Of a DNA stretch of 64,000 nucleotides, positions 8,962 to 53,934 are shown piece by piece. The position numbers and the translations under genes were made by a program. This DNA comes from Naegleria gruberi (lineage: Eukaryota), in NCBI GenBank assembly GCA_000004985.1, contig GG738845.1; one strand, given 5' to 3'. The notes below the pieces were generated by a model that searched no databases, had not been told where the DNA came from, and was given only the letters and a program-made list of their open reading frames with translations. Position 1 is the first letter of the stretch. Each line of letters opens with the position of its first letter.

Positions 8962-9088
8962 CTTGTGGTAAAGTTTGGAAAACCACACTTGATATAGATG
9001 TAGGTTCAGCTCAGTGTAATAATTTTAAAAAGTGCAACAACACCAAAAATTCATCCCTGCATTTTCCTCTAAAAATTATTCTGCTCCT

Positions 9089-11716: not shown

Positions 11717-14700
11717 TTAAATTCTGTTATTTCTCATGAGGGATTGGTAATTGAAAGAGGTTGGGGATGGAGATTCAGTATTATTGACATCAGAGTGTAA
11801 GGAAACCAAAGATAAATCCAATGGAAGAGCAGCTTTTGGATCTCTTTCCAAGTTTTGTGGAATTTTGTGGAAACCAAACTTTTTAGCCAAATCAGTTGGG
11901 TGTTGAGGAGGATTTAAGAAACCACACTTGCACAAGAAGCAATAGTAAGTGGTCATCAATTCAATAACCTTTGGACAAGTAACATTGGAATTTTCCAAAC
12001 CTTCCAAAGTGTGAGTGTTATCATACCATGGACGCTTGGCAGTCATCTTCAAGTCATAATCATCAGTGAAATAGGTTACCAATGGATACAATACATTTTC
12101 TTCAACAACCTTTCCAGTTTCAGTTTCAGCACTTTTATCTCTATTAACAGTAGCTTGATATAACTTTTCCTTCCATTCCTTGAATGGCAATGGCTTGATA
12201 CTGTAACCAAGCTTGTTACCACATTCGAATAATGAATTGAAGAAGAATTCGTGAGGATTGACCAAGTGATAAGCTTGATGTTTAACAACAGAGTCCATAG
12301 TTCTTGACAAGTGAACAATGGCACCAGAAATGAAATCAACAGGAGACATATCCAACTTGGAGAGTGGCATATCTGGATAGTAACCCATTTGGATACAACC
12401 CTTAATCATACGACACAAGAAGTCATCTGGATTCCAGACACCAGTCTTGGCGTGACCTGTAATATAACCTGGTCTGTAGATACAAACTGGTAAACCTCTC
12501 ATACGAGCATTCATGCACAACTTTTCAGCAACATACTTGGATTGTGGATAACCAGTCAAATCTTCGTGATATGGAAGTGTGGAATCTTCATAGACATCAG
12601 TGAATTCCTTATATTGTTCAGAGTCAAAAACAGATGTTGTGGAAACATAGTGAACTGGAGTCAACTTTTGACCAGCACAAGCCATCTTTAAAATTTCACG
12701 AGTACCATTAACGTTGGAGGCCTTCAACTTGTCATAACTGTAGAGCCAATGGACAGCGGCACCATTGTGAACAATGATATCAATAATGTTGGTCATTTCT
12801 TCAAACTTGTTTTCATTCAAACCCAACAATGGTTTAGTCAAATCTCCCAAAACTGGAATAATTCTCATTTCAACAACTTGAGCCAAGTTATTTCTGTTAA
12901 TAGAGTTGACAGAGTCCATTTCTTCTTCTTGATCCATTTCCTTAGAAGTCCACAAGAAGTGATATGACAAGAGGGATTCCAAAATACGTTTTCTGGCCTT
13001 TTCTTCATTTTCAGCTCTAACCAAACAGTAAATCTTGGCAGTTGACTTCTTCAAAAAGTCAGCCAACAAGAATGTACCCAAGAAACCAGTACATCCAGTA
13101 ATCAAAATGTTCTTTGGATTTTGCCAAACCTTGGAATAGGAAATGAAATCGTTAAAGTTCAATTGATGTTGAGGTCTGATAAATGCTTCCAAGTGAGTAT
13201 CCATAGAAACATCTTGAATCAAGTGTTGATTTTTGGTTTGACCACTTCTCAATTGTTCAATAGCAACAGCGAGAGCAGAGATGGTTGGAGCTCTGAACAA
13301 TAATTCAACTGGGAGTTTTTGAGCACCTTCAACTTGATTTCTGATCAACAAGGTCAATGTTGTAGCATTGATAGAGTGACCACCCAAATCAAAGAAGTTA
13401 TCATGGATACCAATGTTATCAGTGTTACCACGTGATAAAACATCAGCCCAAATTTGTTGTAATTGCTTTTCCAAATCATTTCTTGGAGCAACATATCCTT
13501 CTTCATCACCAGAATCCAAAGATGGCATGTGAATTGGATTTGGTAAATCTTGTTTTTTGATTTTACCGTTTGGAGTCAATGGAATCTTTTCCAATGGAAC
13601 AAAGTATGAAGGAATCATATAATCTGGTAATCTGGTTCTGATGTGTTGTCTCAAATCCTTAATGATGGTCTTGATTATACTAGATTCCATATAATTTCCA
13701 TTCTTGGCGTTGAGGGTAGAATTCTTTTCTAATTCAACCTTATCCAAAACAAAGTATGTAACAATACGCTTTTCATTTTGAATGCAATCTTCTCTGACAA
13801 TGGTAACACTTTCCTTAACAAATTCGTGAGAGTTCAGACAGGTGTTAATTTCACCCAATTCAATTCTGAAACCTCTAATCTTAATTTGGTCATCAGCTCT
13901 ACCACTGCATTCAGCATCACCACTAATTAAATATCTACCCAAGTCACCAGTTCTGTACATTCTATCCACATAACCACTGGTCATGAATGGATTTGGAATG
14001 AACTTTTCACGAGTATCCTTTTCCTTACCCTTATAACCTTGAGAAAGATGAGGAGATCTCATGTAAATTTCACCCATTTCACCAATACCTGACAACATGA
14101 ATTTGTTATCACGAGAAGTGAATCTGCTCAATGTCAATGCTTGAACATCTTGCATACCTCTACCGATTGGTAAAATATCCTTCAATTGTTCGAAAGGAAT
14201 ACCAGTTTCAATACACTTTTCACCTGGACGTGGGACCATATAGTAGGTAACAGAACGTTGAGTTTCAGTTGATCCATACAAGTTGATAACCTTAACGATT
14301 GGTGCAATGTCACACAATCTCTTAACGAATTTCTTAGACAAGACATCACCAACAAAGAATGCATATCTCAAATGATTCAATTGGAACAATTGAGATGATG
14401 TGTTAATGACAGATGCAGCAGTAGCCAACAATTGACCCATTGGTGGAGTCAAACAACAAACTGTAATCTTCTTTTCTTCGAACCATTCAGCAAGACGACC
14501 TGGATTGACAATATCTTCATTAGATGGAATATACATGGTACATCCCAAGAACCATGGAGTAAAAATGTCACGTTGCAAAGGATCGTGAGAAATACCAGAT
14601 TGCATTGAGAATCTGTCATTTTCACTAAAGCCAAAATATTGTTTCATCCATGGATAATAGTGAGTGAGAGGACCGTGTCTTCCCAAAACACCCTTTGGAA

Positions 14701-16126
14701 TACCAGTACTTCCTGATGTATAGGTGCAAACAGCAAAGTCATCTTGTGTAATTTTAACATTCAAAGTTGGATCTTCACTCAAATTGGAATCGTTATAATC
14801 AGAGTAGACATTCTCATTAAGAATATCAGTCATGGATTTCAATACTGTTACAAACTTGGTCTTTTCATTGATAAAATCAATGACAGACTTTGGTAATTGA
14901 CCAGCAGCTTCAATTAAAATAACTGCAGATGGTGTTGAAACTTCCAAACAAGTGATAATTCTGTCGGCTGGATAAGCAGGATCTAACATGTTAAAAATTG
15001 CACCACATTTCAATGTAGACAAGATGGCCAACACAACTGGACAAGATCTGTGACCAAAGATTGTCACAACCTCCTGTCTCTTCAATCCCTTATGAAGTAA
15101 GTGTCTTGATAACTGATTGGAAACTCGATTCAATTGTTCAAAGGTAACACTTTCATGATTATCAACCATGGTAATTCTATCTGGTGTTTGTTTAGCCTGT
15201 TCTTGGAAAATTTCATGAATTGGACCAATGAAATCGTTATTCAAAGCTTTATCAGGGTGTGGTAAAACCTTCTTGGCATATTCAGTCACCAAACTGATAT
15301 CATAAATAGAGACATTGCAATTACTCGACAATACTTGTTCAGAAACTAATTTCAATTGATTCAATAATTCAGCCATTCTCAATTCTGTGAACAAGTTATT
15401 TTGATAAATGATACTGAGTTCGTTAGATTGAGTATTGTAGTGTAAATTTAAATCAACATTAGAAATAGGGAATGGTTTGTCCACCTTAGTGAATGGACCG
15501 GCATAGGAACTATAAGAAACTTGAACGAGTAAATTTGTATCAATATTACCAGCATTAGCATTGTTAGACAAAAATTGTTCGAGAATATTCTTTACATTAT
15601 TGAAATATGATAAATGATTCAATGAATCATTGTATGATTGTTGAATATTGGAAAGTAACTTTTTAAAACTATACTTTTCAGTAGCATCACTTTGTGAAAT
15701 ACCTTCAAATGTATCTTCTTCATTGGAAGGCATTGGAATATTGGCTGACAAGATGAATGAATCCTTTTCTTCATTACAATCTTGCAATACACCAATTAAA
15801 AAGGTTTCTTCATATGTATATCTACATAATAATACAACAAATAAGGAGAGAATGAATGAATTCTTAGTAAATAATTGTTGTGCCTCTGAATCTCCATTCT
15901 TGATAAACAGTTCTCTAAATTTGCTACTATTCAACACTTGTTCCATTGAAATGGTATATTCTAATGGTTTATACTCAACTTGGGTAGTAGAGGTAGTAGA
16001 AGTTGATGAAGCTGCTTCATCATTTAACATAACTCTAGGATAATCAGTTGGCAATTTCAAACTTTGATTTTGACTCAACAATTGTGACCAAAACGACAAT
16101 TGTTTTTCCTTCAACAATGAGGCCAT
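11717..16126 (-). CDS. LYS2: L-2-aminoadipate reductase (Lys2): NRPS-like adenylation-thiolation-NAD(P)H reductase domain protein, about 1470 aa
   Basis: Long collinear matches to S. cerevisiae Lys2: TYTSGSTGIPKGVLGRH, HDPLQRDIFTP, PGRLAEW, YRTGDLGRY, GRADDQIKIRGFRIELGEI, NGKIKK, FFDLGGHSINAT (phosphopantetheine Ser), ITGCTGFLGTFLLADFL (Rossmann) and YPQSKYVAEKL. The listed start at 16192 is GTG; the first ATG (MASLLKEKQ) is at 16126. Confidence 0.9.
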   Translation of the reverse strand: MASLLKEKQLSFWSQLLSQNQSLKLPTDYPRVMLNDEAASSTSTTSTTQVEYKPLEYTISMEQVLNSSKFRELFIKNGDSEAQQLFTKNSFILSLFVVLLCRYTYEETFLIGVLQDCNEEKDSFILSANIPMPSNEEDTFEGISQSDATEKYSFKKLLSNIQQSYNDSLNHLSYFNNVKNILEQFLSNNANAGNIDTNLLVQVSYSSYAGPFTKVDKPFPISNVDLNLHYNTQSNELSIIYQNNLFTELRMAELLNQLKLVSEQVLSSNCNVSIYDISLVTEYAKKVLPHPDKALNNDFIGPIHEIFQEQAKQTPDRITMVDNHESVTFEQLNRVSNQLSRHLLHKGLKRQEVVTIFGHRSCPVVLAILSTLKCGAIFNMLDPAYPADRIITCLEVSTPSAVILIEAAGQLPKSVIDFINEKTKFVTVLKSMTDILNENVYSDYNDSNLSEDPTLNVKITQDDFAVCTYTSGSTGIPKGVLGRHGPLTHYYPWMKQYFGFSENDRFSMQSGISHDPLQRDIFTPWFLGCTMYIPSNEDIVNPGRLAEWFEEKKITVCCLTPPMGQLLATAASVINTSSQLFQLNHLRYAFFVGDVLSKKFVKRLCDIAPIVKVINLYGSTETQRSVTYYMVPRPGEKCIETGIPFEQLKDILPIGRGMQDVQALTLSRFTSRDNKFMLSGIGEMGEIYMRSPHLSQGYKGKEKDTREKFIPNPFMTSGYVDRMYRTGDLGRYLISGDAECSGRADDQIKIRGFRIELGEINTCLNSHEFVKESVTIVREDCIQNEKRIVTYFVLDKVELEKNSTLNAKNGNYMESSIIKTIIKDLRQHIRTRLPDYMIPSYFVPLEKIPLTPNGKIKKQDLPNPIHMPSLDSGDEEGYVAPRNDLEKQLQQIWADVLSRGNTDNIGIHDNFFDLGGHSINATTLTLLIRNQVEGAQKLPVELLFRAPTISALAVAIEQLRSGQTKNQHLIQDVSMDTHLEAFIRPQHQLNFNDFISYSKVWQNPKNILITGCTGFLGTFLLADFLKKSTAKIYCLVRAENEEKARKRILESLLSYHFLWTSKEMDQEEEMDSVNSINRNNLAQVVEMRIIPVLGDLTKPLLGLNENKFEEMTNIIDIIVHNGAAVHWLYSYDKLKASNVNGTREILKMACAGQKLTPVHYVSTTSVFDSEQYKEFTDVYEDSTLPYHEDLTGYPQSKYVAEKLCMNARMRGLPVCIYRPGYITGHAKTGVWNPDDFLCRMIKGCIQMGYYPDMPLSKLDMSPVDFISGAIVHLSRTMDSVVKHQAYHLVNPHEFFFNSLFECGNKLGYSIKPLPFKEWKEKLYQATVNRDKSAETETGKVVEENVLYPLVTYFTDDYDLKMTAKRPWYDNTHTLEGLENSNVTCPKVIELMTTYYCFLCKCGFLNPPQHPTDLAKKFGFHKIPQNLERDPKAALPLDLSLVSLHSDVNNTESPSPTSFNYQSLMRNNRI

Positions 16127-17770
16127 GATGCAATTAAAGTGATGATGATTTGAAAAATGTAAATTTACAATGATACTCGAAAGTAGTAACACACTAGTTA
16201 ACTAGTAGTAGGGGAAGGGGAATATGTGTGCAAGTAGCAGAGCAGCAGCAGCAACAGAGAGAACAATTGAATGAATAGAAACAACACAGTCTTGTTGTAG
16301 AGTTGTTTTTTTCGCTCTTTTTCGTGGTGCATCTCCACAGAGACCAAAAGTAAAACGCGAGAGGTGAATCCACATTTTAAATATCAAGCCATTTGAATTT
16401 ATTTGGCGATTTTTCCTCTAGGGATTTTGGGTCATTTCAATTAAAATTCAGCGAATATGTTTAAATTTTCCACTGTGTTGCACTACAATTTACAATGGTG
16501 ATGATGTGTTTGTTGAGGAGAAATTTATAGAAGTTTAAAAGTTGTTTTAAAATTATTGAAAATACATGTATTTCATAGTATTCAATGAATGAAGGCACAG
16601 AGGAAGGATGGGAGAAATGAGGAGTAACAACATTTATGTGACCTCAAATTTACAACACACTTCAAATAACCAAGGGGGGACATAGTTATTTTTAGACAAG
16701 CTACTTGCACGGTAAAGTTTTGAAGCAACCATAGGGAGAAAGGCTTTGCTTTCTTTCTTGATATATACAATAAATGGTGAAATGAAGATTTCAGAATAGA
16801 CAGTCAACTCAATGGTATATCTAAAACTTTTTTCTGTTTTTTTGGTATTATTGTAGTTATTGTGTAATATTAGTGTAAAGTTCCCATAACATTTAAAGTA
16901 CCATACCATTGATATTTTCTCGCCACCATTTGAGAGATAGGTGAATAGTATCTATATAATTATACTCTAAAGAGCCGAGTCGTCAGAATCAGTATTGATC
17001 TTGGTGTATCCCACAGGAGGTAAGTAGTAGGAAATACTTCGTCAAAAAATGACTAGCGAAATTTTGTTGTAAAGAGATGAGTATTATGTCTATATATAAA
17101 CAACCTCAGCCAATAAAAATTCATGGATTCGTTATAATAGATATATATTATCAGTGGTAAAATATTTGTCTGTCAATATGACTTATTAGAGTAATGTAAA
17201 CTTGATGAAAGTTGTTCGTCATTTTATCATTATTTTATAATAAGGAAAAAAATTAGTTGGTAAACTATACTTATTTTTGGAGTAAATAATTGATTTCAAT
17301 CAACTATTATTTCTATAACCGTTTCTGCTAATGTCTATAAACGACTGGAAAAATATGAGAACAAACAAGCATAAATTTATTTATTAAATTAGCACAGGAT
17401 AATAGAATAGTGAAAATCCAGTTGTTTATTCAATTTTGATGGAAACTGATTTTCTTTTCAAAAAATTGTCATCTTATGCATTCATTGAAGCTCAAAAATA
17501 AATTTTTTTATTTATTTTAATTGAAAATAATGAGTTTCTTGTACCATAATATTTTTTAAAAAATGTATGACTTCAACAAATTCTTCACTATGTCCCCCCT
17601 TGCAAATAACTCCGTAAAATTATAATTGTTTGTTTTTAGAATACTTTACATTTGTGTTTGGCCGTATTACTCTCCTTTTAAATCATGTTGTAACGGTCGT
17701 CTCAATTTCATTTATGACATTTTAACCTTATTTAAGATTTACATTACTCCTGTGGAGGGATTTTGGTTTA

Positions 17771-23829: not shown

Positions 23830-26800
23830 ATGCAAACACTACCAAGAGATAACACTCCTGAAAGTGCAATGAATCACATTATGCAGGTTGGTAATGCATC
23901 ATCAAGATTACTTGGTTGTTCCACCTCAAAGAGGATCTCCTCCACACTAGCCGCATCACTCTGTATGATTGTTGCAGTGGTATGCTTTAGTTCAATCATG
24001 ATGATCTCATCTAGCTTTAGCTTTGTAGAGGGACAACAACAACCACAACTCAAAGTCTGTATCAATCAAACATCTACATGGAAGCAAGACATCTGTAGTA
24101 CCAATATTACAATGACCTATCCTAGTTATTGTCATTATCAAAATCCGTACATTGTTCCCTATCCTCTAGGTTACAAATTATTCAATGATTCCACTATTGA
24201 TTTGCAAACATGTTTAGATAAGAATGGAAATCCACAAGATGAATGGTCTGATGAATGCTACTTCCTCAATTCTTTAAATATCATAGAGTTGGAGGGTTTC
24301 TCCACAGGTAATCAATCCTCTCGTTACATTCTATTTGCTACTAATAGAGGCCAATTATTTGGATCCAATTTCAATGATGGAAACGTGTTGCTTCCTCTCA
24401 TGGGAGATAACAATCACTTTGAACCAATTACAAAGGTTGTGAGCGTTCCTTTCAAGGAAGGAAAGGGTGTTTACGTCATTGGTAAAGCAAAACAACACTC
24501 TATCATGTATTATTATTCGCAATTGGATGTAACTTTTCGTCCATGCACCAATTTTAATTTACTAACCAATGCAGATATTGTTTATAGTGAAATTTTATAT
24601 ATGGAAGATCAGGGAGAAATATTCTTACTTTTAATTGGTGAGGAAACAATCTTCTTTTCAAAACTTGGAGCATTGTGCAATATTGTAGAAAAGATTTATA
24701 CTTATCAATTCACTAGTGAAAAGATTGTTAATGTTCAAGTTCATACTCAATATTATAACATTTCTAAACCGACAGCATCCATCTATATTAAGGATGATCA
24801 TCCATACAGAAATTTAATTAGTATTCAAACTAGCAAGTCTCTCTATTTGATTCCTTTCGAGAGAGGTGATAAGGTTATAAGTGGTAATTCTGCTGGATAC
24901 AATCTAATTTATAGAGTTGGATCTTTGGATGAAAAAACTACCATAAGTGGATATACTTTATTCAAGGAGGAAATTATTAAGGCAACTGGTGGAGAATGTT
25001 CTTCATCGGCTCCAGAATATTATCAAGCTCTCTATATTGGAGTTGCTACTTTTAACTCTCAAACTGGATCTTCCAAGATGACTTTGAGAAATTTGAACAG
25101 TTGGGGTTATGAAAGAAGTGATAATACTGTATGTGACGTGACCATTGGTGAATATCCAATCGATGGAAAGTGTGTCAAAGCATTTGAACATGTGCAAACA
25201 CTTCCATACAAGGTCACTCATATCAAATCAACATTTGTTGATCTTCCAGTTGAAGTAAGGGATCAAATTATGGGAATTACAGCTCAATATGTTACCAATA
25301 CCCAAGCAGCTATTCAATCAGTTGGCCCCATGTGTGAACAAATGGCTGGTGTTTCAACTCTCCTAAATAAGGGATCTGATTACATGACCAATTACAAGGC
25401 TTGTTTAGCAACTTTCCAAGCAGTAATTGAAGGAGCTGGACAATGTTCAACCCTTCTGGATATTATTCCACCAGATACTGTGAGAGAAATGATGCTTTAC
25501 CACTGGGTTCACAACATTTTCATCACCATGGAAGATAATTCTCTCATTATTTTTGGTGCTCAAGCTCGTGCATGTCAATCATCTGTTGAAAGAAGTCTAG
25601 TTGTCCGTGAGTACAATCAATTCAAACTTGTTGGAAGACCTTTGGAGTTGGGTATTTCACCAAATGGTCAACACATCTTCCTTACCTTAACAAGAAAGAA
25701 GTGGGAAATTGACGCCTTAATTCGTTATCATGCCATTTGTGAAACTCTGAAAAAGGATGAGAAAAATATATTCTTTAGTTCATTTGCTGATACATGTAAG
25801 GAAAATCCACCAACTGAACCAAATATTGGTTTATTTGGTTTCTCACTTAGTTATTGTATGCCTGGTTTATACTGTCCTAATGTTAAGGAAACAGTCATTA
25901 CAAAACTAGATAATGGTTACTATACTGAAAGACCTAATTATGCCATGCTTTGTCCAAAAGGCAATTTTTGTAAGTTTCTTCTAATAGCTTTTGTTTTACT
26001 CTTTTGATGTTAATAGGTACAAACGGTGTCAAGATGCTTTGTCCACCAGGATTCTATTGTGATGAAGAGGGGTTGGAAGCTCCAAAACGTTGTACTGATA
26101 ATAATTACAATTGTTTCAAGAGTGGTTTACAACAAGAAAATAACGTGCCAGACAAGGGAACTTTAACATTGACTCCTTACTATCCAACCATTCCAATTTC
26201 AGATGGTTTATTCATTATGAGAAGGGATGCCATCCATTATTCAGTTGCAGAATGTAAGAAAGGTGAATACTGTCCATTAGCAAGAGAACTTCAATTTAAC
26301 TCAACTGAGGATTTTAACACTACCAGAAAGAGTTTGAATTGTCCTGATAATACTTTTTGTACAGATTCCCGCATCATTACTCCAACTATTTGTAAATGCA
26401 ATTTTAGTTATTGTAGTTATTGTGTTGATGGAGCAAGTCAGGAAATTGCCTGTCCAGCAGGTTTTTACTGCACCTCTCCAGCAACAAAGAAAGCATGTAC
26501 AAGTGGTCAATATTGCCCTGAAGGAAGTGTCATTCCTCAAGTGTGTCCTGCTGGATATTATTGTGCAAATCCTTCTTCTTTGTCAACTTGTCCTTCTGGA
26601 CATTATTGTCCAACAGGAAGCATTATTCCAAGAGCATGTAGTTTCCTTTCAATTTGTTCAACCAATCAAGAACATGAGGCTTTCAACATTTTGGGATTCC
26701 TCTTTGTTTTTATTTGTTCTTTAATTGTCATTGTAATCTTTTATGCTATCAGACTTGGAAGAAAGTTATGGAATAATTATATTGATAAGAAGAGATCAAT

Positions 26801-28885
26801 TATTCAAACACCAACTTCTCAAAGAGAATTGATGGAACCAGGTGACAAAAAGCCTGCAGGTGTTTCCATTGTCTTTGATAAGCTTTGTTATCATGTGAAT
26901 GGCAAATCAATCCTTAATGATGTGACAGGTGTAATTCCTCCATCTAGATTGACTGCAATCATGGGACCTAGTGGTTGTGGTAAGACAACATTACTTTCCA
27001 TTTTGGCAGGAAGAGTTTATGAAGGTTCAATCAATGGTACCATTAAGATTAATAATACTATTGATTCATTCGCAAATTTGAAAAAGATTACAGGATTTGT
27101 TCCACAAAATGATATCATGCATCCAAATTTAACAGTTAAGGAAACTATTCATTTTGCAGCCAAGACTAAATTGGACTTTAGATTGGCCGCTAAACAAGTA
27201 ACTTCAATTATTAGTAATGTTATTGAAACTCTTGGTCTTGGTCATATTAAACACTCAATTATTGGTGATGAAAAGCAGAGAGGTATTTCAGGAGGTCAAA
27301 AGAAACGTGTTAACATTGGTATTGAATTGGCAGCTGATCCAAAAGTTTTGTTTTTGGATGAACCTACTTCTGGTTTAGATTCAGTCTCAAGTAAGGAAGT
27401 TATGTTTGCCCTTAATAGAATTGCTACTGAACAAAATGTTACCGTTGCAGCAGTTATTCACCAGCCTAGAACTGAAATATTCGAAATGTTCCATAATGTA
27501 ATTTTATTGGAAACTGGTGGTAGATTAGTTTATAATGGACCAAGCGCAAATGCATTGCCATATTTTGAAAAGTTAGGTTACAAAGCAGATGCAAAAGTTA
27601 ATCCAGCTGATTTCATTCTCGATGTTACCTCTGGTCAAGTTCATAATGATAACAAATATATTGCCTCAAGTTTATCTCAAGTTTGGGAGAAACATAGTTC
27701 TACAAGTTATTTCAAAGTCAATCAGAAAGAACTCTTGGAATGTTCTGATTATGAAGAAATTAAGAGGGAAAATTCAAGAAGAACAACTCTTATCACAAGT
27801 CAATTATGGTTATGTTTGAGAAGAACTTTGATTCAATTCACAAGAAGTGTTTTTGATTTCTTATTGGGTGTCTCTTTGGTGTATATTGGTGGTCTTGCAT
27901 GTGGTATAATCTTTGTAGATGGTTTGCATTACAGAGGACCTCCACACGAAGAAATTATCAAATTATGTCCAGAACCATTAAGATTGAAATGTTCAATGCC
28001 CCTCGATGATCCAATCATTTCTATGGCACAAATCATTCCATTGGGTATGGCATTGTGTGGTGTGATGAGTTCTTTGAGTATTTTCGGTGATGAATTGGTT
28101 GTTTTCAAGAGAGAATATGCAAGTGGATTGTCAACCTTAATGTACTTTATTGCAAAGAATATTGTTCACATTCCTTATATTTTGATTTATCCAGCCATTT
28201 ATACGTCCATCTTTTATATTCTTGCCAATCCATTAGGATCTTTCTGGGAATAGTAAGTAGTACAATTAGTGATCTTGTAATTAATATTGAAAATGATAGT
28301 TATGGATATTTAATTTTAGTTTATAATGTTGCTGTTGGTTTTGGTTATTTGCTTTCCATTCTATTGCGACCATCTGTCAGTAAATTGGCAGGTGTAGTTG
28401 TTGTAATTATCATGACCATGTTAGCAGGCCTTAGACCAACAATTCCTCAAATGAATGACATGTTCTTCCCAATGAATATTCTCCACTGGATTTCCTTCTT
28501 GAGATATTCACAAGAAATTGTTTATCTAATTGAACTTGAAAAGTTTACTCAAATTTTCAATGTTCAAACAAGTTTAGACATTTTTGGATACCAGTTTGGA
28601 AATTGGTGGTCAGGTGTAGCATTGATTTGTTATGCAATTGCTTTGAGAATTCTCGCCTATTTGGCTTTATTATATGTTCCAGATACTGTTTTCATAAAGA
28701 GAGGATTCAGATGGCTCATTAATAGAAGAGTTATTATCAAGAATTGGATTGCTCAAAAGAAGGCAAACAGAAAACCAAAGGAATTTCTTGTTGACTCCTC
28801 ACCTTCAACACCTGTTAACCTAAGTAACGAGAATCTATTAGGAGGAGAAGAACAATCACCATATTATAGAGTTTCAGACATTTAA
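23830..28885 (+). CDS. ABCG-type (NBD-TMD) ABC half-transporter fused to a ~900-aa N-terminal Cys-rich ectodomain; three exons join(23830..25969,26017..28252,28300..28885)
   Basis: Signal-anchor MIVAVVCFSSIMMISSSFSF, then a large domain with CPxGxYC repeats (CPAGFYC, CPEGS, CPAGYYC, CPSGHYC, CPTGS), TM ILGFLFVFICSLIVIVIFYAI, Walker A GPSGCGKTTLLSILAGR, signature ISGGQKKRVNIGIELAADPKVLFLDEPTSGLD and an ABC2-type membrane domain. Two 47-nt introns (GTAAGT...TAATAG at 25970..26016; GTAAGT...GATAG at 28253..28299) restore a single frame across the three listed ORFs. Confidence 0.85.
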
Positions 28886-29010: not shown

Positions 29011-29877
29011 ATGGCATCTAATGGCGTAATTTTTACAGAATTAAACACTTGTATGAAGTGGAATGATAAATATATTCCTGAAAATCAATTAATTTACGTT
29101 CGGGATGGAACTACAAGTTGTGATGGAGGCTTTCTTGTTCATCACTTTTTGAATTCTTTTATTAATCATGGAAAGAAAGTAACGCTGTGTTCTTTTAATC
29201 AATCCTTCTTTCACTACAATACAGTTGAATTAAAATTAAATATTAATTTGGAAAAGGAATCACAGGAAGGAAAATTTACATTTATTGATGCTCAACAATC
29301 TTTTGTAGATTCATCGGTGGAGACTGGAGATGACTTACTTTTATTTTCATCACCATTGTTAATTACAAAGACTACACCTGCCACAAGACCAACTTGTATT
29401 GTCAATTTAAAGCATAATAATAGTTTGGATGAATATTTGGCTAATTTATTTGAAATTTTAACTTGTGAGAAACAACAATCATCATGCATCATTTTGGATC
29501 ATGTTAATCCTCTATTACAATATTATTTTGATCAAGATGTCAATAGGAAATTGTTGAAATTTATTACCAAATTGAAGAAATTCTATTCGAATAATATTTC
29601 AATTATTGTCTTGATGCATAATCATCCAGCAGATGATGAAAATACTCAATTGACTAACATGTTTGAACACATGAGTGATATTGTTTATAGAGTGGGTCCA
29701 CTTCCAACAGGCTATTCAAAGGATGTTCACGGAAAAGTTGAATGCATTTCATATATTAATGACGGTACATTGGCAAGCTCAAAGAAAGCTTCTCTTCATT
29801 TCAAAACATTTGAATCAAAGGTTTCATTGTTTGCACCAGGTTCTGTTTCGGCTTCTCACGACACTTTCTTATTTTAA
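29011..29877 (+). CDS. ELP6: Elongator complex protein 6 (ELP6, RecA-like fold)
   Basis: DGGFLVHHFLNSFINHGKKVTLCSFNQSFFHY parallels human DGSFLVHHFLSFYLKANCKVCFVALIQSFSHY. YSKDVHGKVECI...SLHFKTFESKVSLFAPGS parallels CRDVHGQLRIL...FTYQYKIQDKSVSFFAKGMS. Confidence 0.8.
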   Translation: MASNGVIFTELNTCMKWNDKYIPENQLIYVRDGTTSCDGGFLVHHFLNSFINHGKKVTLCSFNQSFFHYNTVELKLNINLEKESQEGKFTFIDAQQSFVDSSVETGDDLLLFSSPLLITKTTPATRPTCIVNLKHNNSLDEYLANLFEILTCEKQQSSCIILDHVNPLLQYYFDQDVNRKLLKFITKLKKFYSNNISIIVLMHNHPADDENTQLTNMFEHMSDIVYRVGPLPTGYSKDVHGKVECISYINDGTLASSKKASLHFKTFESKVSLFAPGSVSASHDTFLF

Positions 29878-29965: not shown

Positions 29966-30847
29966 TTATCTTCTCTTCCCAAGAGTTGCTAAAGGTGTAT
30001 TCTTATACTCAACTGGTTGCCTTAATCCAGACTTTAAATGATCTTGGGTTAGAGAATGGGTAAAATCACCCCACATTTTGTTGTTCTTTGGTTGAGTTTC
30101 TTGTGGAACTGGGCTTGCAGCTTTGAGAGCGTCTGACCAACCTCCTGATTGTGTCATTGTACGAACTGCTGATTGCTTATCTGGAATGATAGCCTTAGAT
30201 GTTGTGAACATTTCTGAAGGAATGTGTGTACTGGTGGTAGAAGTTTCCGAAAGTTTTTGCTTTTCTGCAATCTCAGCAGCATAGGTTGTCTTGAAAGTGC
30301 TCATTAAATTCTTTTCATTTTCCTTCTCAATCATCCACTGTTGTTTCTTTTGTTCCACGAGACGAGATGGAGCATGATTTTCTTGGAGTCCTGGTTTGAT
30401 TGTTCTAATGGCCTGAATTGCTGAATCAGTTTTTAATGCTTGTTGTGGAGGTGCATAGGTGAGATTTGTCATGGAAACGTGACTTTGTTCATATCTATCA
30501 TCACCATGAACAAAGAGTATTTCCTTCTCAGTCTCTTTAGGAAGAATTGGTTCTTCTACTCTGTAGGCATCCTTCTTGAGATTTGTTGGGTGTTGGTACA
30601 TTATTTGATTAAGTGTGGCTGGAGTTTTTAAGAGATTTTCATAACCAGTATCATTTCTCAATTTATCTTGATAGTCGGAAGCATTTCTTTCTTCAATCCA
30701 ATTTTCAATTAATGTTCCATTATTGTAGAGGTTTTTATGACTGCTTAAACCAATTTGTTCCGATCTTAAGACTCTTTCCTTAGGTGGAAGATATTCTGTA
30801 ACAGACTTTAAAGTACCAGTTTGTTGATGTTGTCTTGTTTGTTCCAT
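29966..30847 (-). CDS. Hypothetical hydrophilic protein, 293 aa
   Basis: Long ORF with ATG. Low-complexity Q/T/K-rich sequence with no recognisable domain. Confidence 0.5.
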   Translation of the reverse strand: MEQTRQHQQTGTLKSVTEYLPPKERVLRSEQIGLSSHKNLYNNGTLIENWIEERNASDYQDKLRNDTGYENLLKTPATLNQIMYQHPTNLKKDAYRVEEPILPKETEKEILFVHGDDRYEQSHVSMTNLTYAPPQQALKTDSAIQAIRTIKPGLQENHAPSRLVEQKKQQWMIEKENEKNLMSTFKTTYAAEIAEKQKLSETSTTSTHIPSEMFTTSKAIIPDKQSAVRTMTQSGGWSDALKAASPVPQETQPKNNKMWGDFTHSLTQDHLKSGLRQPVEYKNTPLATLGKRR

Positions 30848-33008: not shown

Positions 33009-36000
33009 ATGACACAAAAACGAACGCCACTCAACGATCTATTCCCAGAACTTTCTCCCAATCACAGTTCACCTCACGATTATTCAACACCTCCTAAAAA
33101 ACAAAAGAAACAACAAAATCCATCATCTAATGGTGTTGATCAACAAGAACAAAATACGAAAGTGGAAACTTTATTGGAAACTAGTAATTGTACAACAACA
33201 ACACCTCACAACCATCACACACTTTCTGCTGATGACATTTTTCTTGAAGAAAGTGTTGATGGAGGAGTGGATAAAGAATCTTGTTCATTCGATAGTTTAG
33301 TTTCTAATAATGAAGGTAGCGAAAATGGAGGACTGACAAGTCCTTCTTTTTCCTCTGTAGATACAAATAACATTCCTAGTAGTTTAGTTTCTCCCTATGT
33401 TTCAAATGACACTCTAGATATTCGAAACAAGGAAGAAACACTTTTACAAGAATTAGATAAGTTTGTGGGTGAAAGTACACACGCACAACAAGCTCTGAAA
33501 ACAATACAACGCTGTTTTCTTAACAAGGTGGTCAGAAAAAACTTGAAAAGTAAGTTTTTTGTATTTACAAACTAATTTTAAACTAATTTCAATCAATTTA
33601 AATAACAATTTCCTTGAAATTCACTAAAATAGAATTGTCCACAATGTGTAAAAAACGTAAACACGTAATTAATGAAATAATTTCAACTGAAAAATCATAT
33701 GTCACTGATTTGAAAACAATTATGGATGTTTTCTATACTCCAATTGTTAAAAAAGGAATTGAAGCAAGTGAAAATATGGCTAGTATTTTTGTAAATGTAG
33801 AAATGATTTACAATTTGAATGAAAAATTGTATCAACGATTGGTCATTGCTCAAGATCATCAAGAAAAATGTGAACAGAAACAAAACGAAATGATCAAACA
33901 ATTAGTTTCTGTTATTAGATTATCTGCTTCTTCTGGTAATTTGCAAAGTATTGGAAGTGTTGGTAATATTGCTAGTAATCATACAGATGCTGCAGAATTT
34001 AGAATGTCAGCAGTTCCAATTGGTTCTTCACTTGACAGCTCAAGAAGAGCTACAATTACATCACCAACTGAACATTCTGCAAGTGCACAAAGTTTAAAAA
34101 ACAATGTAACAACTACTAACAATATATTCAATGAGACAGCATCAACAAATTCCAATCAAAAATCAAAAAATAGCAAGAATAAGAAGGATAAGAAAAAGTC
34201 AGGTGGAACAATCAAATCTTTGAAAGATTTTAAAAACAAAATTACACGTGGTAAACTTACCAATTTGGATATTCCAAATGGAGAGGCTCCAAATAGTTCG
34301 AGATCAACAACGAATGGAAGTTTGACTCCAACAGGTCAAATGAAATCGTTTGGTGGAGCTTTTGCTGAAATGGCCCCTTTTATGAGATTGTACACTGATT
34401 ATATCAATAACTTTTCACAAGCATCAAGTATTTTGAAGGATAGAAGAAAGAAGAATCAACAGTTACAAATCTATTTAAACGTAAGTTTTTATTTTATGTT
34501 TCGAATTCTAACCAAGTCATTATTTTAAATAGAAATGTAAGGAAACAAGAGAAGAATGTAGAGGATTGGATGTTTCTTCATTCTTAATCTTACCAGTTCA
34601 AAGAATTCCAAAGTATCAACTCTTATTGAGAGAATTACTGAAATACACACCAAAAGGACACTCTGATTACATGTACCTTTCCACAGCTCATGACACCATG
34701 ATTCAAGTTGCTAATCATTTGAATGAAATGAGAAGACAGAAACTTGCCTTTACCAGAGTGATGGATATCAAACAGAGATTAACTGAATTGAGTTTCCAAT
34801 TGGTTACAGCCATGAAAAATGCTCTCGTTGAAAGTCCAATTGTGAAACATAATTTCAATTCTATTGAACAAGTTAAGAATTCAATTATCAAACCGCACAG
34901 ACACTTTGTGAATGAAGTATTGGTCAATGTAATAAGAGATAAAGTCTCCCCTCTCAAATTACAATGGATCGATAAAGCAATCAATACAGACATGCCACAA
35001 TCTGAACCAATTCCATTCGAAAGTTACCTATTCAATGACTATTACTTGTTAATCATTAAGGGAATCAAGAATGAAGACAGATCAGAGGATTCAGCCGTGA
35101 TGACTCTTCCAAGTGCTTCCTTACAAACAATGGCAACTGATCGTTCTAATTATACTATTTTTGCAAGAACTCCTAGGGATACAGTTGTAGATATTAATCA
35201 AATGGATGAAATACTTGGTCAAAAAGAATTGACTGCACCATTCATTGTTCAACCGTTCTACTTGTCAATTAGTGATTTCTCCATCGTTGATAAGGATCCA
35301 TTGGCAATGAGATGCAAGGATTATATCAGTGGAGCTGAATTTAGAGTTTTCTTTGAAACAGAAGACATCAGAAATGAGTGGTACAATAATATTACTGATA
35401 AGAAGAGGCAAGAAATTCAAAAACTCATCAAGCAAATGACTGAAAAACATACCAAGGCCAAGTTTAGTAATTTACCTGAATATCATGGAAGTGAAACAGC
35501 TAGAGCCAGAGATGTTGAGGAGACTGAACTGCACGCAAGAAACTTGTCCATTGAAAAGTTTAGCAAAATTTCTGAGTTTATTCAAGAAAAGATTAGTATT
35601 CAAAACAGATTTATCAAGATGAGAATGGACTTTGATAAGATTAAGAAAACCTTTGATAAGGACTTTGAAAAGTATCAAACTCTCAAGATGATCCTAAGTA
35701 GATTGAAAGACACTCCAGATCTGTACGAAAAAAAACAAAAACAAGTCATTGAATATGAAAATGAAATGGTTAAAACAAGAACCAGATTGAAGGATGCAAG
35801 TGAACGTCTCCAGAAGGGTGAAGGTGTCTTTAATCAAATGATTGAAAGAACCAAAGAATGCGATGAAGTTATTCTCATGTGTTTGAGAAATGATATCGAG
35901 TCATTGACTGCATTCTTTGGAGATTCTCAAATTTTAGATCAACCTGAAATTGTTGATCTGAGAGACATTGTAATGAAGATGCAATCCATTGATAATGATG

Positions 36001-37412
36001 TTTTCTATTTGGAAATTGAACACAAATTCCCAAAGCCATCCACTCAACCATTATCTGTATCGAGTAACAATATTATTATCAATTCTAGTTTCCACAAGAT
36101 GATTCCAAGTAGTGCTGAATCATCAATGGATGATGATACAACCAGTGAAACTGGTTCAACAATGAGCAATGCTCAAACTATTGAAGATGAAGAAGATTTG
36201 ATGAATACACCAAGTAAATCAAATAGCACACTAAGACCTGCCAACGTTCCAAAACTTCAAATTTCTGCTGAACCACCAGTCAACTCTCCACAAGATTCTC
36301 TGCAACAGTTGAAAAAGATTGAAGAACTTGAATTACTCATCAAGACAATCACTGAAGATAGAGATGAGTGGAAGAACAAGTTTGAATCACTCTCGCAGGA
36401 ATTCGACACTCAAAAACAAAGTGTAACCTCATTGAGTGAGGAAAATACCGATTTGAAGGAGGCCAATGCAATGCTTTCATCCAAGATTGAAACTCTAAAT
36501 GATGAGATGGAACAATTGAGAGCACAAACCAGAAAGCAAGACTTTGACATCAATAAGAGAAGATCCAATAGTGTACCTATCAAGTACTTGGGTGATTCTC
36601 TCTCCCTTGATGACGAAGAGGATGAAAATGAAACTAATCACTCCCACGACAAGTTGACTTCACCTCGTTCAAGTACCTCCTCTGAGACTCAAAAGATTGA
36701 TCTTGCTGTCGTTCCAACTGTTAATCAAATTGTTGAACAGTATGAAAAGCAAATTTTAGAAATCAAGACTGAAAATGACAAACTCATTGAAGAAATCGAT
36801 CAAACCAAGTATCTTTTGGAGCAACTCAAGAATGAAGCCACAGAAGAAAAGCTAACTTTCACACAACAAATTCAAAACTTGAGGGCAACCATTGAGAATA
36901 TGACTAATAATGGTTATATTCCATATGTTGATTCTGATTTTGAAACTGATGAGGAATCAGCTCACTCACCAAGCTCTTCTCTATCATCTGAGAGATCCAA
37001 TTCAATTCCAAGATTGGACACTTCATCAACCAATAGCACTAAAGTTAAATCTTCAGGAATGTCACAAGGAGCACTCACCACTCAACGTTCCCGCATTCAG
37101 GAACATGTCGAAAAGTATGAACAATTATCTAGAAGTAATCTTGACTCTTCTCGTATTGCCAGGAACAAATCCAAGTTTGGACATGACATGTTGGACGACT
37201 CTGAAACACAAAGTATTGATAACAAGATTCTCAAAATTACCATTCAAACTGTACAATATCAATTACAAACAGAGAGACAACAACACGAGCTTAGCAAAAA
37301 GGCACAATCCTCTCTGAAGGATGAAGTTAACATTTTAAAGAAGAGACTTGATGAAGCTAATAAGGTGATTGAAGATATGAAAAAGATTGTCTTTACACAT
37401 TTTAAAGTTTAA
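33009..37412 (+). CDS. Dbl-homology (DH) domain Rho guanine-nucleotide exchange factor with long C-terminal coiled coil; three exons join(33009..33549,33633..34480,34533..37412)
   Basis: DH domain RKHVINEIISTEKSYVTDLKTIMDVFYTPIV ... LILPVQRIPKYQLLLRELLKYTP spans exons 2 and 3. Introns GTAAGT...AAATAG (33550..33632, 83 nt, phase 1) and GTAAGT...AAATAG (34481..34532, 52 nt, phase 0) fuse the three listed ORFs. The listed start at 32988 is TTG; the first ATG (A-rich context) is at 33009. The C-terminal ~600 aa is heptad-rich. Confidence 0.8.
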
Positions 37413-49502: not shown

Positions 49503-50357
49503 TTAAATATCAGCATTGAGTCCTCCAAACATTTTCTCTTCCATCTTTTTCAACTTTTTCAATTCCTTTCTTTCCTTCTTTTCTTCCTTCTTTCTTTTCT
49601 TTTCCTCTTTTGAAAGTTTCTTCTTTGGTTCTTCATTTTCCTTCTTTTCAAGTTGAGTTGGTGATTTCACAACAGCTGAGCCTTCATCCTCTCCATCCTC
49701 TTCTTCATCACTAGAATCGTGTCTTCCATTTGATGGTGATCCCTCAAACATGGTCATCATTAGATACTTGTGAAGCCAATTAGGATCTCTCTTTTTCATG
49801 GCATCATGATACAAAGTCCACTCAAAATCATCATTAGCCTTCTTTACTTTCTTATAAATCATTCCATCCTTTTCCATAGTTTCATATTTCGGAACATTTT
49901 CCTTCTTATCTTGTTGATATCTGTTATTGAACCGACCAGTAGTAGATGATGAATTTCTTCCTCCATTCCTGCCAGAATTTTGTTGTTCTTCCGGATCTTC
50001 GACAATCTTCTTATAATAATTAGGAGCATGATCGACACATATTATTCTTCCACCCAATTCAATGCCATTCAAATTATCAATGGCCAATATTGTCGAGCGA
50101 ACATCTTCATAGGCAATAAAACAAAATCCCTTACTGGTCAATTCCTGTTCCTCACGAACCAAATCAATATCAACAATTTCTCCATATTGAGAGAAAACTG
50201 AGAGTAAATCACCTTCCGTCAATCGGAAATCCAAGCCTCCAATGTAGATGTAGGCTGTTCGATTTTTTTCCTGATGATGCCATGAAGATGGAGTGTTTGT
50301 ATAGCCCAGAGAAAGTTCCTTCTGATTCAACTCGTTGATTTGTTTTGCTCTTTTCAT
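49503..50357 (-). CDS. RBMX2: RRM protein RBMX2 / Ist3-Snu17 (U2 snRNP / RES complex component)
   Basis: MKRAKQINELNQKELSLG...AYIYIGGLDFRLTEGDLLSVFSQYGEIVDIDLVRE...SKGFCFIAYEDVRSTILAIDNLNGIELGGRIICVDH is collinear with human RBMX2. It has a K/E-rich C-terminal tail. Confidence 0.85.
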   Translation of the reverse strand: MKRAKQINELNQKELSLGYTNTPSSWHHQEKNRTAYIYIGGLDFRLTEGDLLSVFSQYGEIVDIDLVREEQELTSKGFCFIAYEDVRSTILAIDNLNGIELGGRIICVDHAPNYYKKIVEDPEEQQNSGRNGGRNSSSTTGRFNNRYQQDKKENVPKYETMEKDGMIYKKVKKANDDFEWTLYHDAMKKRDPNWLHKYLMMTMFEGSPSNGRHDSSDEEEDGEDEGSAVVKSPTQLEKKENEEPKKKLSKEEKKRKKEEKKERKELKKLKKMEEKMFGGLNADI

Positions 50358-50678
50358 TTTTTTTCTAAAGAATAAAAGAATATAATTCTTGTTGAATATG
50401 ACATGAAAACCTCTATTTACTCTGACTTGTAAATATGATGTTTCAAAAGTTATTACAAGGCATCGACACTACAATTCAACAAGTATATTCCTGATACTAA
50501 TTTTGACATCTTCTACTAGTCCTCTCAATTCAGAAAATTTAGTATTAATCTTAAAATCATTAAAGTTCTCTGACTTAGTATAGAGTTTATATATTATACA
50601 AAGGTTGATTAATGATATCCTCAATCATTATTTATTATTATTATTCTTGCTAATTAATCTACGCATGTAGTAGAATAA

Positions 50679-53750: not shown

Positions 53751-53934
53751 ACCAGTATTTTATAAATCAAAACACACTAACAAGAACCACTGATCCAACC
53801 ATAACAACACATTTAATGAAACCGAAGTACTTTAATACAATATTATACTAAGAAAACTCCAACACACCACTCTCAAAATTAAAAACTCAATCTTCCTTAT
53901 TGCAGCCATATGATTTGAAACCACGAATAAAATT

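What the first reader, a model, noticed from the sequence alone, without database searches (positions are those of the whole stretch)
23830..28885. ABCG half-transporter fused to a ~900-aa Cys-rich extracellular domain
After intron removal the three listed ORFs form one protein: a signal-anchor, a large N-glycosylated ectodomain ending in tandem CPxGxYC mini-repeats, a TM helix, then a complete ABCG NBD-TMD module. ABCG/White transporters normally start directly with the NBD. An N-terminal receptor-like ectodomain suggests a ligand- or adhesion-coupled transporter.
Basis: partly seen in the sequence, partly recalled or inferred. Interest (0 to 1): 0.6.

Follow-up and report, generated by a model that had tools for sequence, protein, structure and literature searches.

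The report
ABCG transporter with propeller ectodomain
This Naegleria gruberi gene really does encode one 1653-residue protein that joins a large extracellular beta-propeller and cysteine-rich stalk to a complete ABCG half-transporter; the fusion is not a one-off but belongs to a conserved protist family that I could not find described in the searchable literature, and whose function is unknown.

Summary
Window 23830-28885 (+) in Naegleria gruberi is one gene with three exons and two 47-nt GTAAGT..TAG introns, encoding 1653 aa. The fusion does not depend on splicing: exon 2 is a single ORF that carries 220 aa of stalk, a TM helix, the NBD and half of the TMD. Both junctions align without gaps to homologues. 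Intron 2 sits in the same codon and phase in N. fowleri.

The architecture is not unique. 36 of the best 150 ectodomain homologues also carry the ABCG module. They include Naegleria, Willaertia, Anaeramoeba, Barthelona, Rigifila and Telonema; the last two are transcripts.

The "signal-anchor" is more likely a cleaved signal peptide. N-glycosylation sequons are at chance level.

The idea of a ligand- or adhesion-coupled transporter is untested. I found no paper describing this architecture. A link to the long plant ABCG24/28 proteins is a lead only.

Verdict: a real gene and a new variant of a known kind, of moderate interest.

The parts
23830..25969 (+). Exon 1: residues 1-713 plus the first base of codon 714
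   Evidence: ATG at 23830 after an A-rich leader. The ORF is open up to the GTAAGT donor at 25970.
23950..24006 (+). N-terminal hydrophobic segment (residues 41-59), followed by SSSFSFVEG/QQQ. Probably a signal peptide h-region; the true start may be a downstream Met such as M46.
   Evidence: Hydropathy 2.44. Homologues start with classical signal peptides followed by the conserved C..PS[WY]C..NP motif.
24253..25689 (+). Seven-bladed beta-propeller (residues ~142-620) with an alpha-helical insertion (~474-557)
25970..26016 (+). Intron 1: 47 nt, GTAAGT..TAG, phase 1, splitting the invariant Cys714 codon (t|gt)
   Evidence: The junction aligns without gaps to 7 homologues and restores an invariant Cys. 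Retaining the intron gives a frameshift and a stop at 26005-26007. N. fowleri has continuous coding sequence here.
25699..26687 (+). Cysteine-rich stalk (residues ~624-937, interrupted by intron 1): 28 Cys and eight CxxGx[FYW]C motifs. It is the best-conserved ectodomain module of the family.
   Evidence: 32 invariant columns, 27 of them Cys, across 16 family members. Motif count 8 against 0.014 expected. AF2 pLDDT ~90 with short beta-hairpins. No Pfam family hits it in any of 16 members. The profile retrieves PF07699 (GCC2_GCC3)/MEGF6-like proteins.
26017..28252 (+). Exon 2: last two bases of codon 714, residues 715-1458 and two bases of codon 1459. One uninterrupted ORF carries stalk, TM0, NBD and the first half of the TMD.
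26688..26744 (+). TM0: extra single-pass helix (residues 938-956), followed by a basic cytosolic stretch RLGRKLWNNYIDKKR
   Evidence: Hydropathy 3.04, the highest in the protein. In the AF2 model of homologue P0123 the equivalent region is one long helix followed by a disordered linker to the NBD.
26913..27371 (+). Nucleotide-binding domain core (residues 1013-1165). Motif start positions: Walker A 1030, Q-loop 1075, signature SGGQKKR 1138, Walker B 1157, D-loop 1165, H-loop 1195.
   Evidence: Pfam ABC_tran E=2.1e-26. Motif scan. Best PDB matches are Pdr5/Cdr1, ABCG25 and ABCG2.
27801..28672 (+). ABC2-type transmembrane domain (residues 1309-1583, interrupted by intron 2)
   Evidence: PF19055 E=1e-35 and PF01061 E=1.6e-16. 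TM peaks from hydropathy. The family profile matches ABCG1 and ABCG5 through the TMD.
27918..28013 (+). First extracellular loop (residues 1348-1379) with the family-conserved two-Cys motif CPxxLxxxCxLPxxDPI
   Evidence: Consensus of alignments A4-A6. Alignments of the family profile to most canonical ABCG chains stop at the end of TM1. That this is a family-specific insertion is my inference.
28253..28299 (+). Intron 2: 47 nt, GTAAGT..TAG, phase 2, in the Tyr1459 codon (ta|t)
   Evidence: The junction aligns without gaps. N. fowleri has an intron in the same codon and phase (TGG CAG TA|GTAAGT..CAATAG|C).
28300..28885 (+). Exon 3: last base of codon 1459, residues 1460-1653 and the stop codon. 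It covers the last TM helices and a basic cytosolic C-terminal tail.

Best explanation
This is a genuine single Naegleria gruberi gene for a type-I-anchored 'ecto-ABCG' half-transporter.

Shown:
- The order of parts is N-terminal secretory signal, 7-bladed beta-propeller, rigid disulfide-rich stalk, one extra TM helix (TM0), disordered cytosolic linker, catalytically intact NBD, then an ABC2-type 6-helix TMD.
- It belongs to a conserved family with the same architecture in Heterolobosea, Metamonada, CRuMs and Telonemia.

Inferred from established ABCG biology:
- Like other ABCG half-transporters it should work as a dimer.
- It should use ATP to move a substrate from the cytosolic side or inner leaflet to the extracellular or luminal side.

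Inferred from topology:
- The positive-inside rule after TM0 and the cytosolic NBD place the two propeller-stalk ectodomains of a dimer on the exit side of the transporter.

Most likely role of the ectodomain (hypothesis only):
- It acts as a binding platform held above the exit face. It could accept or hand on the exported substrate, or it could tether or sort the pump to a particular surface or compartment through a bound partner.
- A family-specific Cys-containing first extracellular loop may be its docking site on the TMD.

The substrate and the binding partner are unknown.
For: Gene model:
- Two in-frame 47-nt GTAAGT..TAG introns.
- The stalk-TM0-NBD-TMD fusion lies inside one ORF.
- Both junctions align without gaps to homologues and restore an invariant Cys.
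- Intron 2 is conserved in codon and phase in N. fowleri.
- A similar short intron occurs in a neighbouring RhoGEF gene.

Organism: the neighbouring ORFs are identical to N. gruberi XP_002683282 and XP_002683586.

ABCG identity:
- Pfam domains above their cut-offs.
- All six NBD motifs intact.
- Best PDB sequence hits are ABCG proteins.
- The AF2 model of family member P0123 superposes on ABCG25, ABCG2, ABCG5/8 and ABCG1 with TM-score 0.81-0.86.

Family:
- 1611 ectodomain homologues in the exhaustive search. 36 of the best 150 carry the ABCG module C-terminal to the ectodomain match.
- Named members are listed, with lineages.
- The propeller region is homologous across members.

Topology: classical signal peptides in many homologues; a basic stretch follows TM0.
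Against: - There are no transcript data for N. gruberi itself.
- The N-terminal hydrophobic segment lies 40 residues from the first ATG. The start codon, and whether the signal is cleaved or an anchor, remain unsettled.
The ABCG fold was therefore shown on a homologue with about 40% identity.
- Nothing tests dimerisation, localisation, substrate, or any ectodomain function.
- The propeller matches only generic propellers at 7-12% identity, so it gives no functional clue.
Confidence: 0.85

Rival explanations
1. These are two separate genes: a secreted or anchored Cys-rich protein upstream and an ordinary ABCG gene downstream. On this view the joint reading frame is a coincidence of adjacent ORFs.
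For: In N. fowleri one public annotation splits the locus into 159-aa and 1549-aa models. ORF callers on metagenome contigs also report ectodomain-only fragments such as P0029 and P0030.
Against: Exon 2 alone is one ORF that contains 220 aa of the conserved stalk, TM0, the NBD and half of the TMD. The conserved stalk module itself spans intron 1. Full-length homologues, including Rigifila and Telonema transcripts, are continuous. The N. fowleri split sits far upstream at an A-run frameshift, not at the ectodomain/ABC boundary.
Confidence: 0.02
2. It is one gene whose product is cut after synthesis. The ectodomain is shed or works independently as an adhesin or surface coat protein, and the remaining TM0-ABCG works as an ordinary ABCG exporter. 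The fusion would then serve only co-expression or co-targeting.
For: The Cys-rich repeats resemble those of large surface and extracellular-matrix proteins. The profile retrieves PF07699/MEGF6-like proteins, and Foldseek matches the Chlamydomonas mastigoneme protein. The ectodomain is a self-contained folded unit.
Against: No conserved linker or recognisable cleavage site lies between the stalk and TM0; the last conserved Cys is about 10 residues from the membrane. The strict co-occurrence of the ectodomain, TM0 and a family-specific Cys-containing extracellular loop in the TMD suggests the parts work together.
Confidence: 0.1
3. It is an intracellular rather than a cell-surface transporter. 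The ectodomain would face the lumen of a secretory, endolysosomal or contractile-vacuole compartment and act as a sorting or luminal-binding domain, by analogy with plant ABCG28 on secretory vesicles.
For: An Anaeramoeba family member was automatically named 'ABC transporter G family member 28'. Arabidopsis ABCG28 is reported to act on secretory vesicles of pollen tubes (review PMC7419745). A beta-propeller plus Cys-rich module plus single TM is also the layout of sorting receptors of the sortilin/VPS10 type (my own knowledge, not tested).
Against: No localisation data exist. Homology of the plant N-terminal extension to this stalk was not tested here. This reading is compatible with the best explanation, differing only in which membrane is involved.
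Confidence: 0.3
4. It is a pseudogene or an assembly artefact.
For: The exact 1653-aa model is not in the protein collection. No near-identical N. gruberi protein appeared in either protein search, although both neighbours are present.
Against: The three exons are long and open with canonical splice sites. Every catalytic motif and every invariant Cys is intact. The downstream part of the gene and its downstream flank are present on an independent contig carrying the identical neighbouring ELP6 gene.
Confidence: 0.02

Closest known systems
Canonical ABCG half-transporters (human ABCG2, ABCG1, ABCG5/G8; Arabidopsis ABCG25/ABCG16; Drosophila White)
   Same: They share the reverse NBD-then-TMD order, intact Walker A/B, Q-loop, signature, D-loop and H-loop, and an ABC2-type TMD. 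The model of a family member superposes on them at TM-score 0.81-0.86. They are presumed to act as ATP-driven dimeric exporters.
   Different: Canonical members begin with the cytosolic NBD and have no signal peptide. This protein adds about 940 N-terminal residues (signal, beta-propeller, Cys-rich stalk, TM0), giving 7 TM helices per chain. Its first extracellular loop is longer and contains conserved Cys.
Uncharacterised protist 'ecto-ABCG' proteins: N. fowleri CAG4708565.1 (1726 aa), Willaertia magna KAL9658626 and KAL9645155, N. lovaniensis XP_044554665, Anaeramoeba flamelloides KAJ6245543, Barthelona KAL0232387, and Rigifila and Telonema transcripts
   Same: They have the same full architecture and homologous ectodomains. 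Identity is 36% to N. fowleri over the ectodomain and 49% over the stalk-to-C-terminus region. The stalk Cys pattern is invariant.
   Different: None in kind; the N. gruberi gene is simply another member. Intron content differs: N. gruberi has 2 introns and N. fowleri at least 5 in the ABC half, and only one position is shared.
Plant long half-size ABCG24/ABCG28 (about 1040-1112 aa)
   Same: They are half-size ABCGs about 400 aa longer than usual (maize lengths). An Anaeramoeba family member was automatically named after ABCG28. From memory, these plant proteins carry an N-terminal extension with an extra TM segment.
   Different: The plant extension is too short to hold a propeller. Whether it is homologous to the stalk was not testable here, because no plant sequence was reachable with the tools. 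This is a lead, not a finding.
ABCA transporters (ABCA1, ABCA3, ABCA4) with large extracellular domains
   Same: They are ABC exporters with a large folded domain on the exit side, which is thought to receive lipid substrates. This is a functional analogy only.
   Different: ABCA extracellular domains are loops inserted between TM1 and TM2 of each half and have a different fold. Here the ectodomain is N-terminal, tethered by its own TM helix, and is a propeller plus stalk.
Extracellular propeller plus Cys-rich-module receptors (semaphorin/plexin Sema-PSI, LGI1 EPTP), GCC2_GCC3 (PF07699) repeat proteins and the Chlamydomonas mastigoneme protein
   Same: They share a 7-bladed extracellular propeller fold and CxxGxYC-type disulfide-rich mini-repeats. 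The stalk profile retrieves PF07699-bearing proteins. Foldseek matches the mastigoneme filament at 17% identity over 321 columns.
   Different: Sequence identity to the propellers is only 7-12%. No Pfam model, PF07699 included, reaches E<=1 on this protein or on 15 relatives. None of these proteins is fused to a transporter.

Membership tests
ABCG subfamily of ABC transporters | Reverse domain order: the NBD is N-terminal to the TMD within the half-transporter | tested here: met
   ABC_tran at 1013-1165 precedes ABC2_membrane at 1309-1583.
ABCG subfamily of ABC transporters | Intact ATPase motifs: Walker A, Q-loop, ABC signature, Walker B with catalytic Glu, D-loop, H-loop | tested here: met
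   GPSGCGKT at 1030, VPQ at 1075, SGGQKKR at 1138, VLFLDEP at 1157, SGLD at 1165, HQP at 1195.
ABCG subfamily of ABC transporters | ABC2-type (type V) transmembrane domain | tested here: met
   PF19055 scores 123.9 bits against a cut-off of 22.7, and PF01061 scores 60.9 against 26.9. Hydropathy shows 5-6 peaks. The family profile aligns through the TMD of ABCG1 and ABCG5.
ABCG subfamily of ABC transporters | Closest solved relatives are ABCG/PDR proteins, with the ABCG fold | tested here: met
   By sequence: Pdr5 4e-68, ABCG25 6e-55, ABCG2 1e-54. By fold: tested on homologue P0123 only, TM-score 0.81-0.86.
ABCG subfamily of ABC transporters | Works as a homo- or heterodimer and exports a substrate | not testable with these tools
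   This needs biochemistry or a multimer prediction.
Protist ecto-ABCG family (defined here) | Conserved stalk module with the family's invariant Cys pattern directly before TM0 | tested here: met
   32 invariant columns (27 Cys) across 16 members, including this protein.
Protist ecto-ABCG family (defined here) | Homologous N-terminal propeller region | tested here: met
   jackhmmer from residues 68-600 recovers 37 held proteins, including N. fowleri, Willaertia, Anaeramoeba, Barthelona and Rigifila.
Protist ecto-ABCG family (defined here) | Cleavable N-terminal signal peptide | tested here: inconclusive
   Many homologues start with a classical signal peptide. In N. gruberi the h-region is at 41-59, so the start codon or the type of signal is uncertain. 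No signal-peptide predictor was available.
Plant ABCG24/ABCG28 clade | N-terminal extension and extra TM homologous to this stalk and TM0; NBD groups with ABCG24/28 in a tree | not tested
   No plant sequence was retrievable. The only indications are an automated name and protein lengths.
GCC2_GCC3 domain (Pfam PF07699) | Significant match to the Pfam model | tested here: not met
   No hit at E<=1 on this protein or on the 16 stalk sequences. The stalk profile does retrieve PF07699-bearing proteins, so a distant relationship is possible.
WD40 repeat family | WD40 sequence repeats | tested here: not met
   No Pfam WD40 hit. Only the 7-bladed propeller fold is shared.
ABCA-type extracellular domain | Large extracellular domain inserted between TM1 and TM2 of the TMD | tested here: not met
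   The ectodomain is N-terminal and is separated from the TMD by TM0 and the cytosolic NBD.

The most novel reading that the evidence does not exclude
The family may be an ancient, undescribed class of 'receptor-ABCG' transporters. It is present in Discoba, Metamonada, CRuMs and Telonemia, and may survive in reduced form as plant ABCG24/28. On this reading the extracellular propeller binds a specific ligand or surface, and the rigid stalk, TM0 and Cys-containing first extracellular loop pass that signal on to gate or direct ATP-driven export. That would be a ligand-coupled ABC exporter.
Probability: 0.15. Interest if true: 0.8.

Novelty: new variant of a known kind. Interest (0 to 1): 0.5.

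Why it matters
ABCG transporters are defined by starting with a cytosolic NBD and having almost no extracellular mass. A conserved subfamily with an ~870-residue folded ectodomain on its own TM helix breaks that rule, and it does so in at least four deep eukaryotic lineages. That raises testable questions: does an ABCG exporter use an external acceptor or receptor domain, as ABCA proteins do with their extracellular domains, or is it targeted by one? The stalk and propeller have no Pfam model, so a domain definition would improve annotation. The N. fowleri orthologue is mis-split in one annotation, and no near-identical N. gruberi protein for this locus appeared in either protein library. N. 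fowleri is a lethal human pathogen, so a surface-exposed family-specific domain on a transporter could interest people looking for markers or targets. If the plant ABCG24/28 extension proves homologous, the protist proteins would explain where it came from.

Tried and rejected
- **The search for homologous proteins, three searches.** I used the full protein, the ectodomain and the stalk profile. None returned the family. Every hit lay within about twice the query length, so the tool appears to band candidates by length. This cost all three searches. The exhaustive HMMER search found the family.
- **Exact look-up.** Neither my 1653-aa model nor ORF 1 is in the collection.
- **The look-up of encoding contigs on the ELP6 neighbour.** It returned only short metagenome contigs with prokaryote-style gene calls and no reference annotation.
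- **PDB sequence searches.** The ectodomain gave no hit, and neither did the TMD alone.
- **Pfam on the stalk of 16 members.** Nothing relevant was found.
- **AFDB fold search.** The library was not available, so the plant ABCG24/28 models could not be compared.
- **Short 'stalk-only' natural forms.** I looked at P0123, P0141 and P0148. They lack signal peptides and look like truncated ORF calls, so I rejected them as evidence of short forms.
- **Literature.** Ten searches and several papers turned up no description of an ABCG with an N-terminal ectodomain. Do et al. 2019 on ABCG28 and the Arabidopsis Book ABC chapter are not held.
- **Neighbouring genes.** Sec10, ELP6, a CCT subunit, RhoGEF and the rest show no functional link.


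Full report
**Origin of the window.** The two ORFs just downstream of the finding (29011-29874 + and 29969-30847 -) are identical to Naegleria gruberi XP_002683282 (an ELP6-family protein) and XP_002683586. The window is 30-37% G+C. Its other ORFs are ordinary eukaryotic genes: Sec10, a CCT chaperonin subunit, RhoGEF, actin, a mitochondrial carrier and others. Nothing around the locus suggests a functional cluster.

**Gene model.** ORFs 23830-26007, 26004-28253 and 28349-28885 lie on the + strand.
- The first is open up to a GTAAGT at 25970. The stretch 25970-26016 is 47 nt and ends in TAG.
- The second ends in a TAG that overlaps a GTAAGT at 28253. The stretch 28253-28299 is again 47 nt and ends in TAG.
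- Removing both gives a 4962-nt reading frame of 1653 codons plus a stop.
- Intron 1 is phase 1 and splits the codon for Cys714. Intron 2 is phase 2 and splits Tyr1459.

Four independent lines support the model.
1. Exon 2 alone is one uninterrupted ORF. It holds the last 220 residues of the cysteine-rich ectodomain, the TM helix, the whole NBD and the first half of the TMD. The fusion therefore does not rest on any splicing assumption.
2. Both junctions align without gaps to homologues from N. fowleri, Willaertia, Anaeramoeba, Barthelona, Rigifila and Telonema. Junction 1 restores a Cys that is invariant in the family.
3. In the N. fowleri locus (L003) an intron sits in the same Tyr codon and the same phase as intron 2 (TGG CAG TA|GTAAGT...CAATAG|C). 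The site of intron 1 is continuous coding sequence there.
4. Short GTAAGT..TAG introns occur elsewhere in the window, for example about 52 nt in the RhoGEF gene near 34481.

**The transporter half.**
- Pfam places ABC_tran at 1013-1165 and ABC2_membrane_7/ABC2_membrane at 1309-1583, all well above their cut-offs.
- Walker A, Q-loop, signature (SGGQKKR), Walker B, D-loop and H-loop are all intact.
- The best solved relatives by sequence are Pdr5/Cdr1, Arabidopsis ABCG25, human ABCG2, ABCG1 and ABCG5/8.
Instead I modelled the family member P0123, which is about 40% identical in this part. It gave pLDDT 82 and pTM 0.72.
- That model shows stalk, one long helix (TM0), a disordered linker, NBD and TMD. 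It superposes on ABCG25, ABCG2, ABCG5/8 and ABCG1 with target-normalised TM-scores of 0.81-0.86.

This is a complete ABCG half-transporter that appears catalytically competent.

**The ectodomain.**
- Residues 68-935 have no Pfam match and no PDB sequence match.
- With an alignment of 39 homologues, AlphaFold2 gives a confident model (pLDDT 84.1, pTM 0.78).
- A beta-rich domain spans residues ~142-620, with an alpha-helical insertion at ~474-557. It is followed by a ~310-residue stalk of short hairpins.
- Foldseek lists LGI1 EPTP, semaphorins and WD40 proteins. For the stalk it lists the Chlamydomonas mastigoneme protein.
- The ectodomain has 42 Cys, 28 of them in the last 300 residues. CxxGx[FYW]C occurs 8 times against 0.014 expected.
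- N-glycosylation sequons (8) are exactly at the shuffled expectation of 8.0, so the sequence gives no evidence for heavy glycosylation.

**Topology.**
- The strongest hydrophobic segment (938-956) is followed by RLGRKLWNNYIDKKR. With the cytosolic NBD, this places residues ~61-937 outside the cell or in a lumen.
- The N-terminal hydrophobic segment is at 41-59. Many homologues with complete N-termini begin with a classical short signal peptide, followed by a conserved C..PS[WY]C..NP motif.
- A cleaved signal and type-I orientation is therefore more likely than a signal-anchor. The N. gruberi start may be a downstream Met. This remains unsettled.

**Not unique: a conserved family.**
- An exhaustive HMMER search with the ectodomain found 1611 proteins at E<=1e-3.
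- Some are giant proteins that match only the CxxGxYC repeats. However, 36 of the best 150 also contain an ABCG module C-terminal to the ectodomain match.
- Named members are N. fowleri (CAG4708565.1, 1726 aa), N. lovaniensis (a paralogue), Willaertia magna (two), Anaeramoeba flamelloides (two, one auto-named 'ABC transporter G family member 28'), Barthelona, and assembled transcripts of Rigifila ramosa and Telonema subtile.
- These represent Heterolobosea (N. gruberi and its relatives), Metamonada, CRuMs and Telonemia.
- The stalk is the best-conserved ectodomain part, with 32 invariant columns in 16 sequences. The propeller region is also detectably homologous across members.
- The family also shares a two-Cys motif (CPxxLxxxCxLPxxDPI) in the first extracellular loop of the TMD. 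Alignments of the family profile to most canonical ABCGs end at the close of TM1, just before it. I read this as a family-specific loop that may contact the ectodomain. That is my inference.

**How it most likely works.**
- Shown: the parts and their order, the intact ATPase motifs, the family conservation.
- Inferred from ABCG biology: the protein dimerises and exports a substrate to the side where the ectodomains sit.
- Hypothesis: the propeller, held on a rigid disulfide-bonded stalk, binds something. That could be an acceptor for the substrate, or a surface or luminal partner that positions or sorts the pump.
- No result here discriminates between these options, or between plasma-membrane and vesicular location.
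- The only functional lead is the plant ABCG28 work on secretory vesicles of pollen tubes (review PMC7419745). Whether plant ABCG24/28, which are about 1040-1112 aa in maize, share this stalk could not be tested, because no plant sequence or AFDB library was reachable.

**Comparison with what is known, and novelty.**
- Membership of the ABCG subfamily is met on every testable criterion.
- The N-terminal addition is not a member of any curated domain family. PF07699 was tested and not met, although the stalk profile retrieves PF07699-bearing proteins.
- Ten full-text searches found no paper describing an ABCG with an extracellular N-terminal domain. The library covers only open-access papers.
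- Homologous sequences are public, but they are annotated only as ABC transporters or hypothetical proteins. One N. fowleri annotation splits the gene at an apparent A-run frameshift.
- No near-identical N. gruberi protein for this locus appeared in either protein library, although both neighbours are there. Either the reference annotation lacks or mis-models the gene, or the tools withhold it.

**Verdict.** Its functional reading is an open hypothesis. The feature is a new variant of a known kind (ABCG half-transporters), not a singular oddity. Interest is moderate, at 0.5.

Noticed in passing
L003 2469-8372 (N. fowleri VFQX01000012.1), especially 2899-2912: The N. fowleri orthologue is annotated as two adjacent models (159 aa and 1549 aa) in one assembly and as a single 1726-aa protein in another record. 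The reading frame shifts at an A-run (CTCAAAAAAGAT) with no intron signals, which suggests a homopolymer error or a strain indel. The ABC half has at least 5 introns of 95-186 nt, against one in N. gruberi.
   Followed up: partly
window 23830-28885: Neither protein library returned a near-identical N. gruberi protein for this locus; the best family hit is 37% identical. Both flanking genes are present as XP_ records. The reference annotation may lack or mis-model this gene, or the tools may withhold it.
   Followed up: partly
window 27918-28013 (residues 1348-1379): The first extracellular loop of the TMD is ~32 residues long and carries a family-conserved two-Cys motif (CPxxLxxxCxLPxxDPI). 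Alignments of the family profile to most canonical ABCG chains stop just before it. It may be a docking site for the ectodomain.
   Followed up: partly
window 53934-54026 (-) and 61182-61274 (-): These are two identical 93-nt tRNA genes, apparently intron-containing, each scoring 47.4 bits against Rfam. ARAGORN could not assign the anticodon; the loop reads like Leu-UAA. About 35 nt of the upstream flank is also nearly identical, and the downstream flanks diverge. They lie 7.2 kb apart.
   Followed up: partly
window 11720-16192 (-): This 1491-aa ORF has AMP-binding, PP-binding and NAD_binding_4 (terminal reductase) domains. It is an NRPS-like carboxylate reductase of the Lys2/alpha-aminoadipate reductase type.
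   Followed up: no
window 7318-8961 (+) and 9032-10795 (+): Two tandem paralogues carry GT10 fucosyltransferase domains.
   Followed up: no
window 33614-37412 (+), intron near 34481-34532: A RhoGEF domain is split across two ORFs by a ~52-nt GTAAGT..TAG intron. The pair is probably one gene of about 1250 aa.
   Followed up: no
window 38873-41359 (-): This 829-aa ORF has a PPC (pre-peptidase C-terminal) domain, a UPF0669/C6orf120-like domain and a C-terminal TM-like segment. It is another receptor-like type-I membrane protein.
   Followed up: no
window 50001-54000: This is the lowest G+C stretch of the window (26-29%), and it has strongly negative GC skew. No ORF of 200 aa or more lies between 50357 and 55445.
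   Followed up: no
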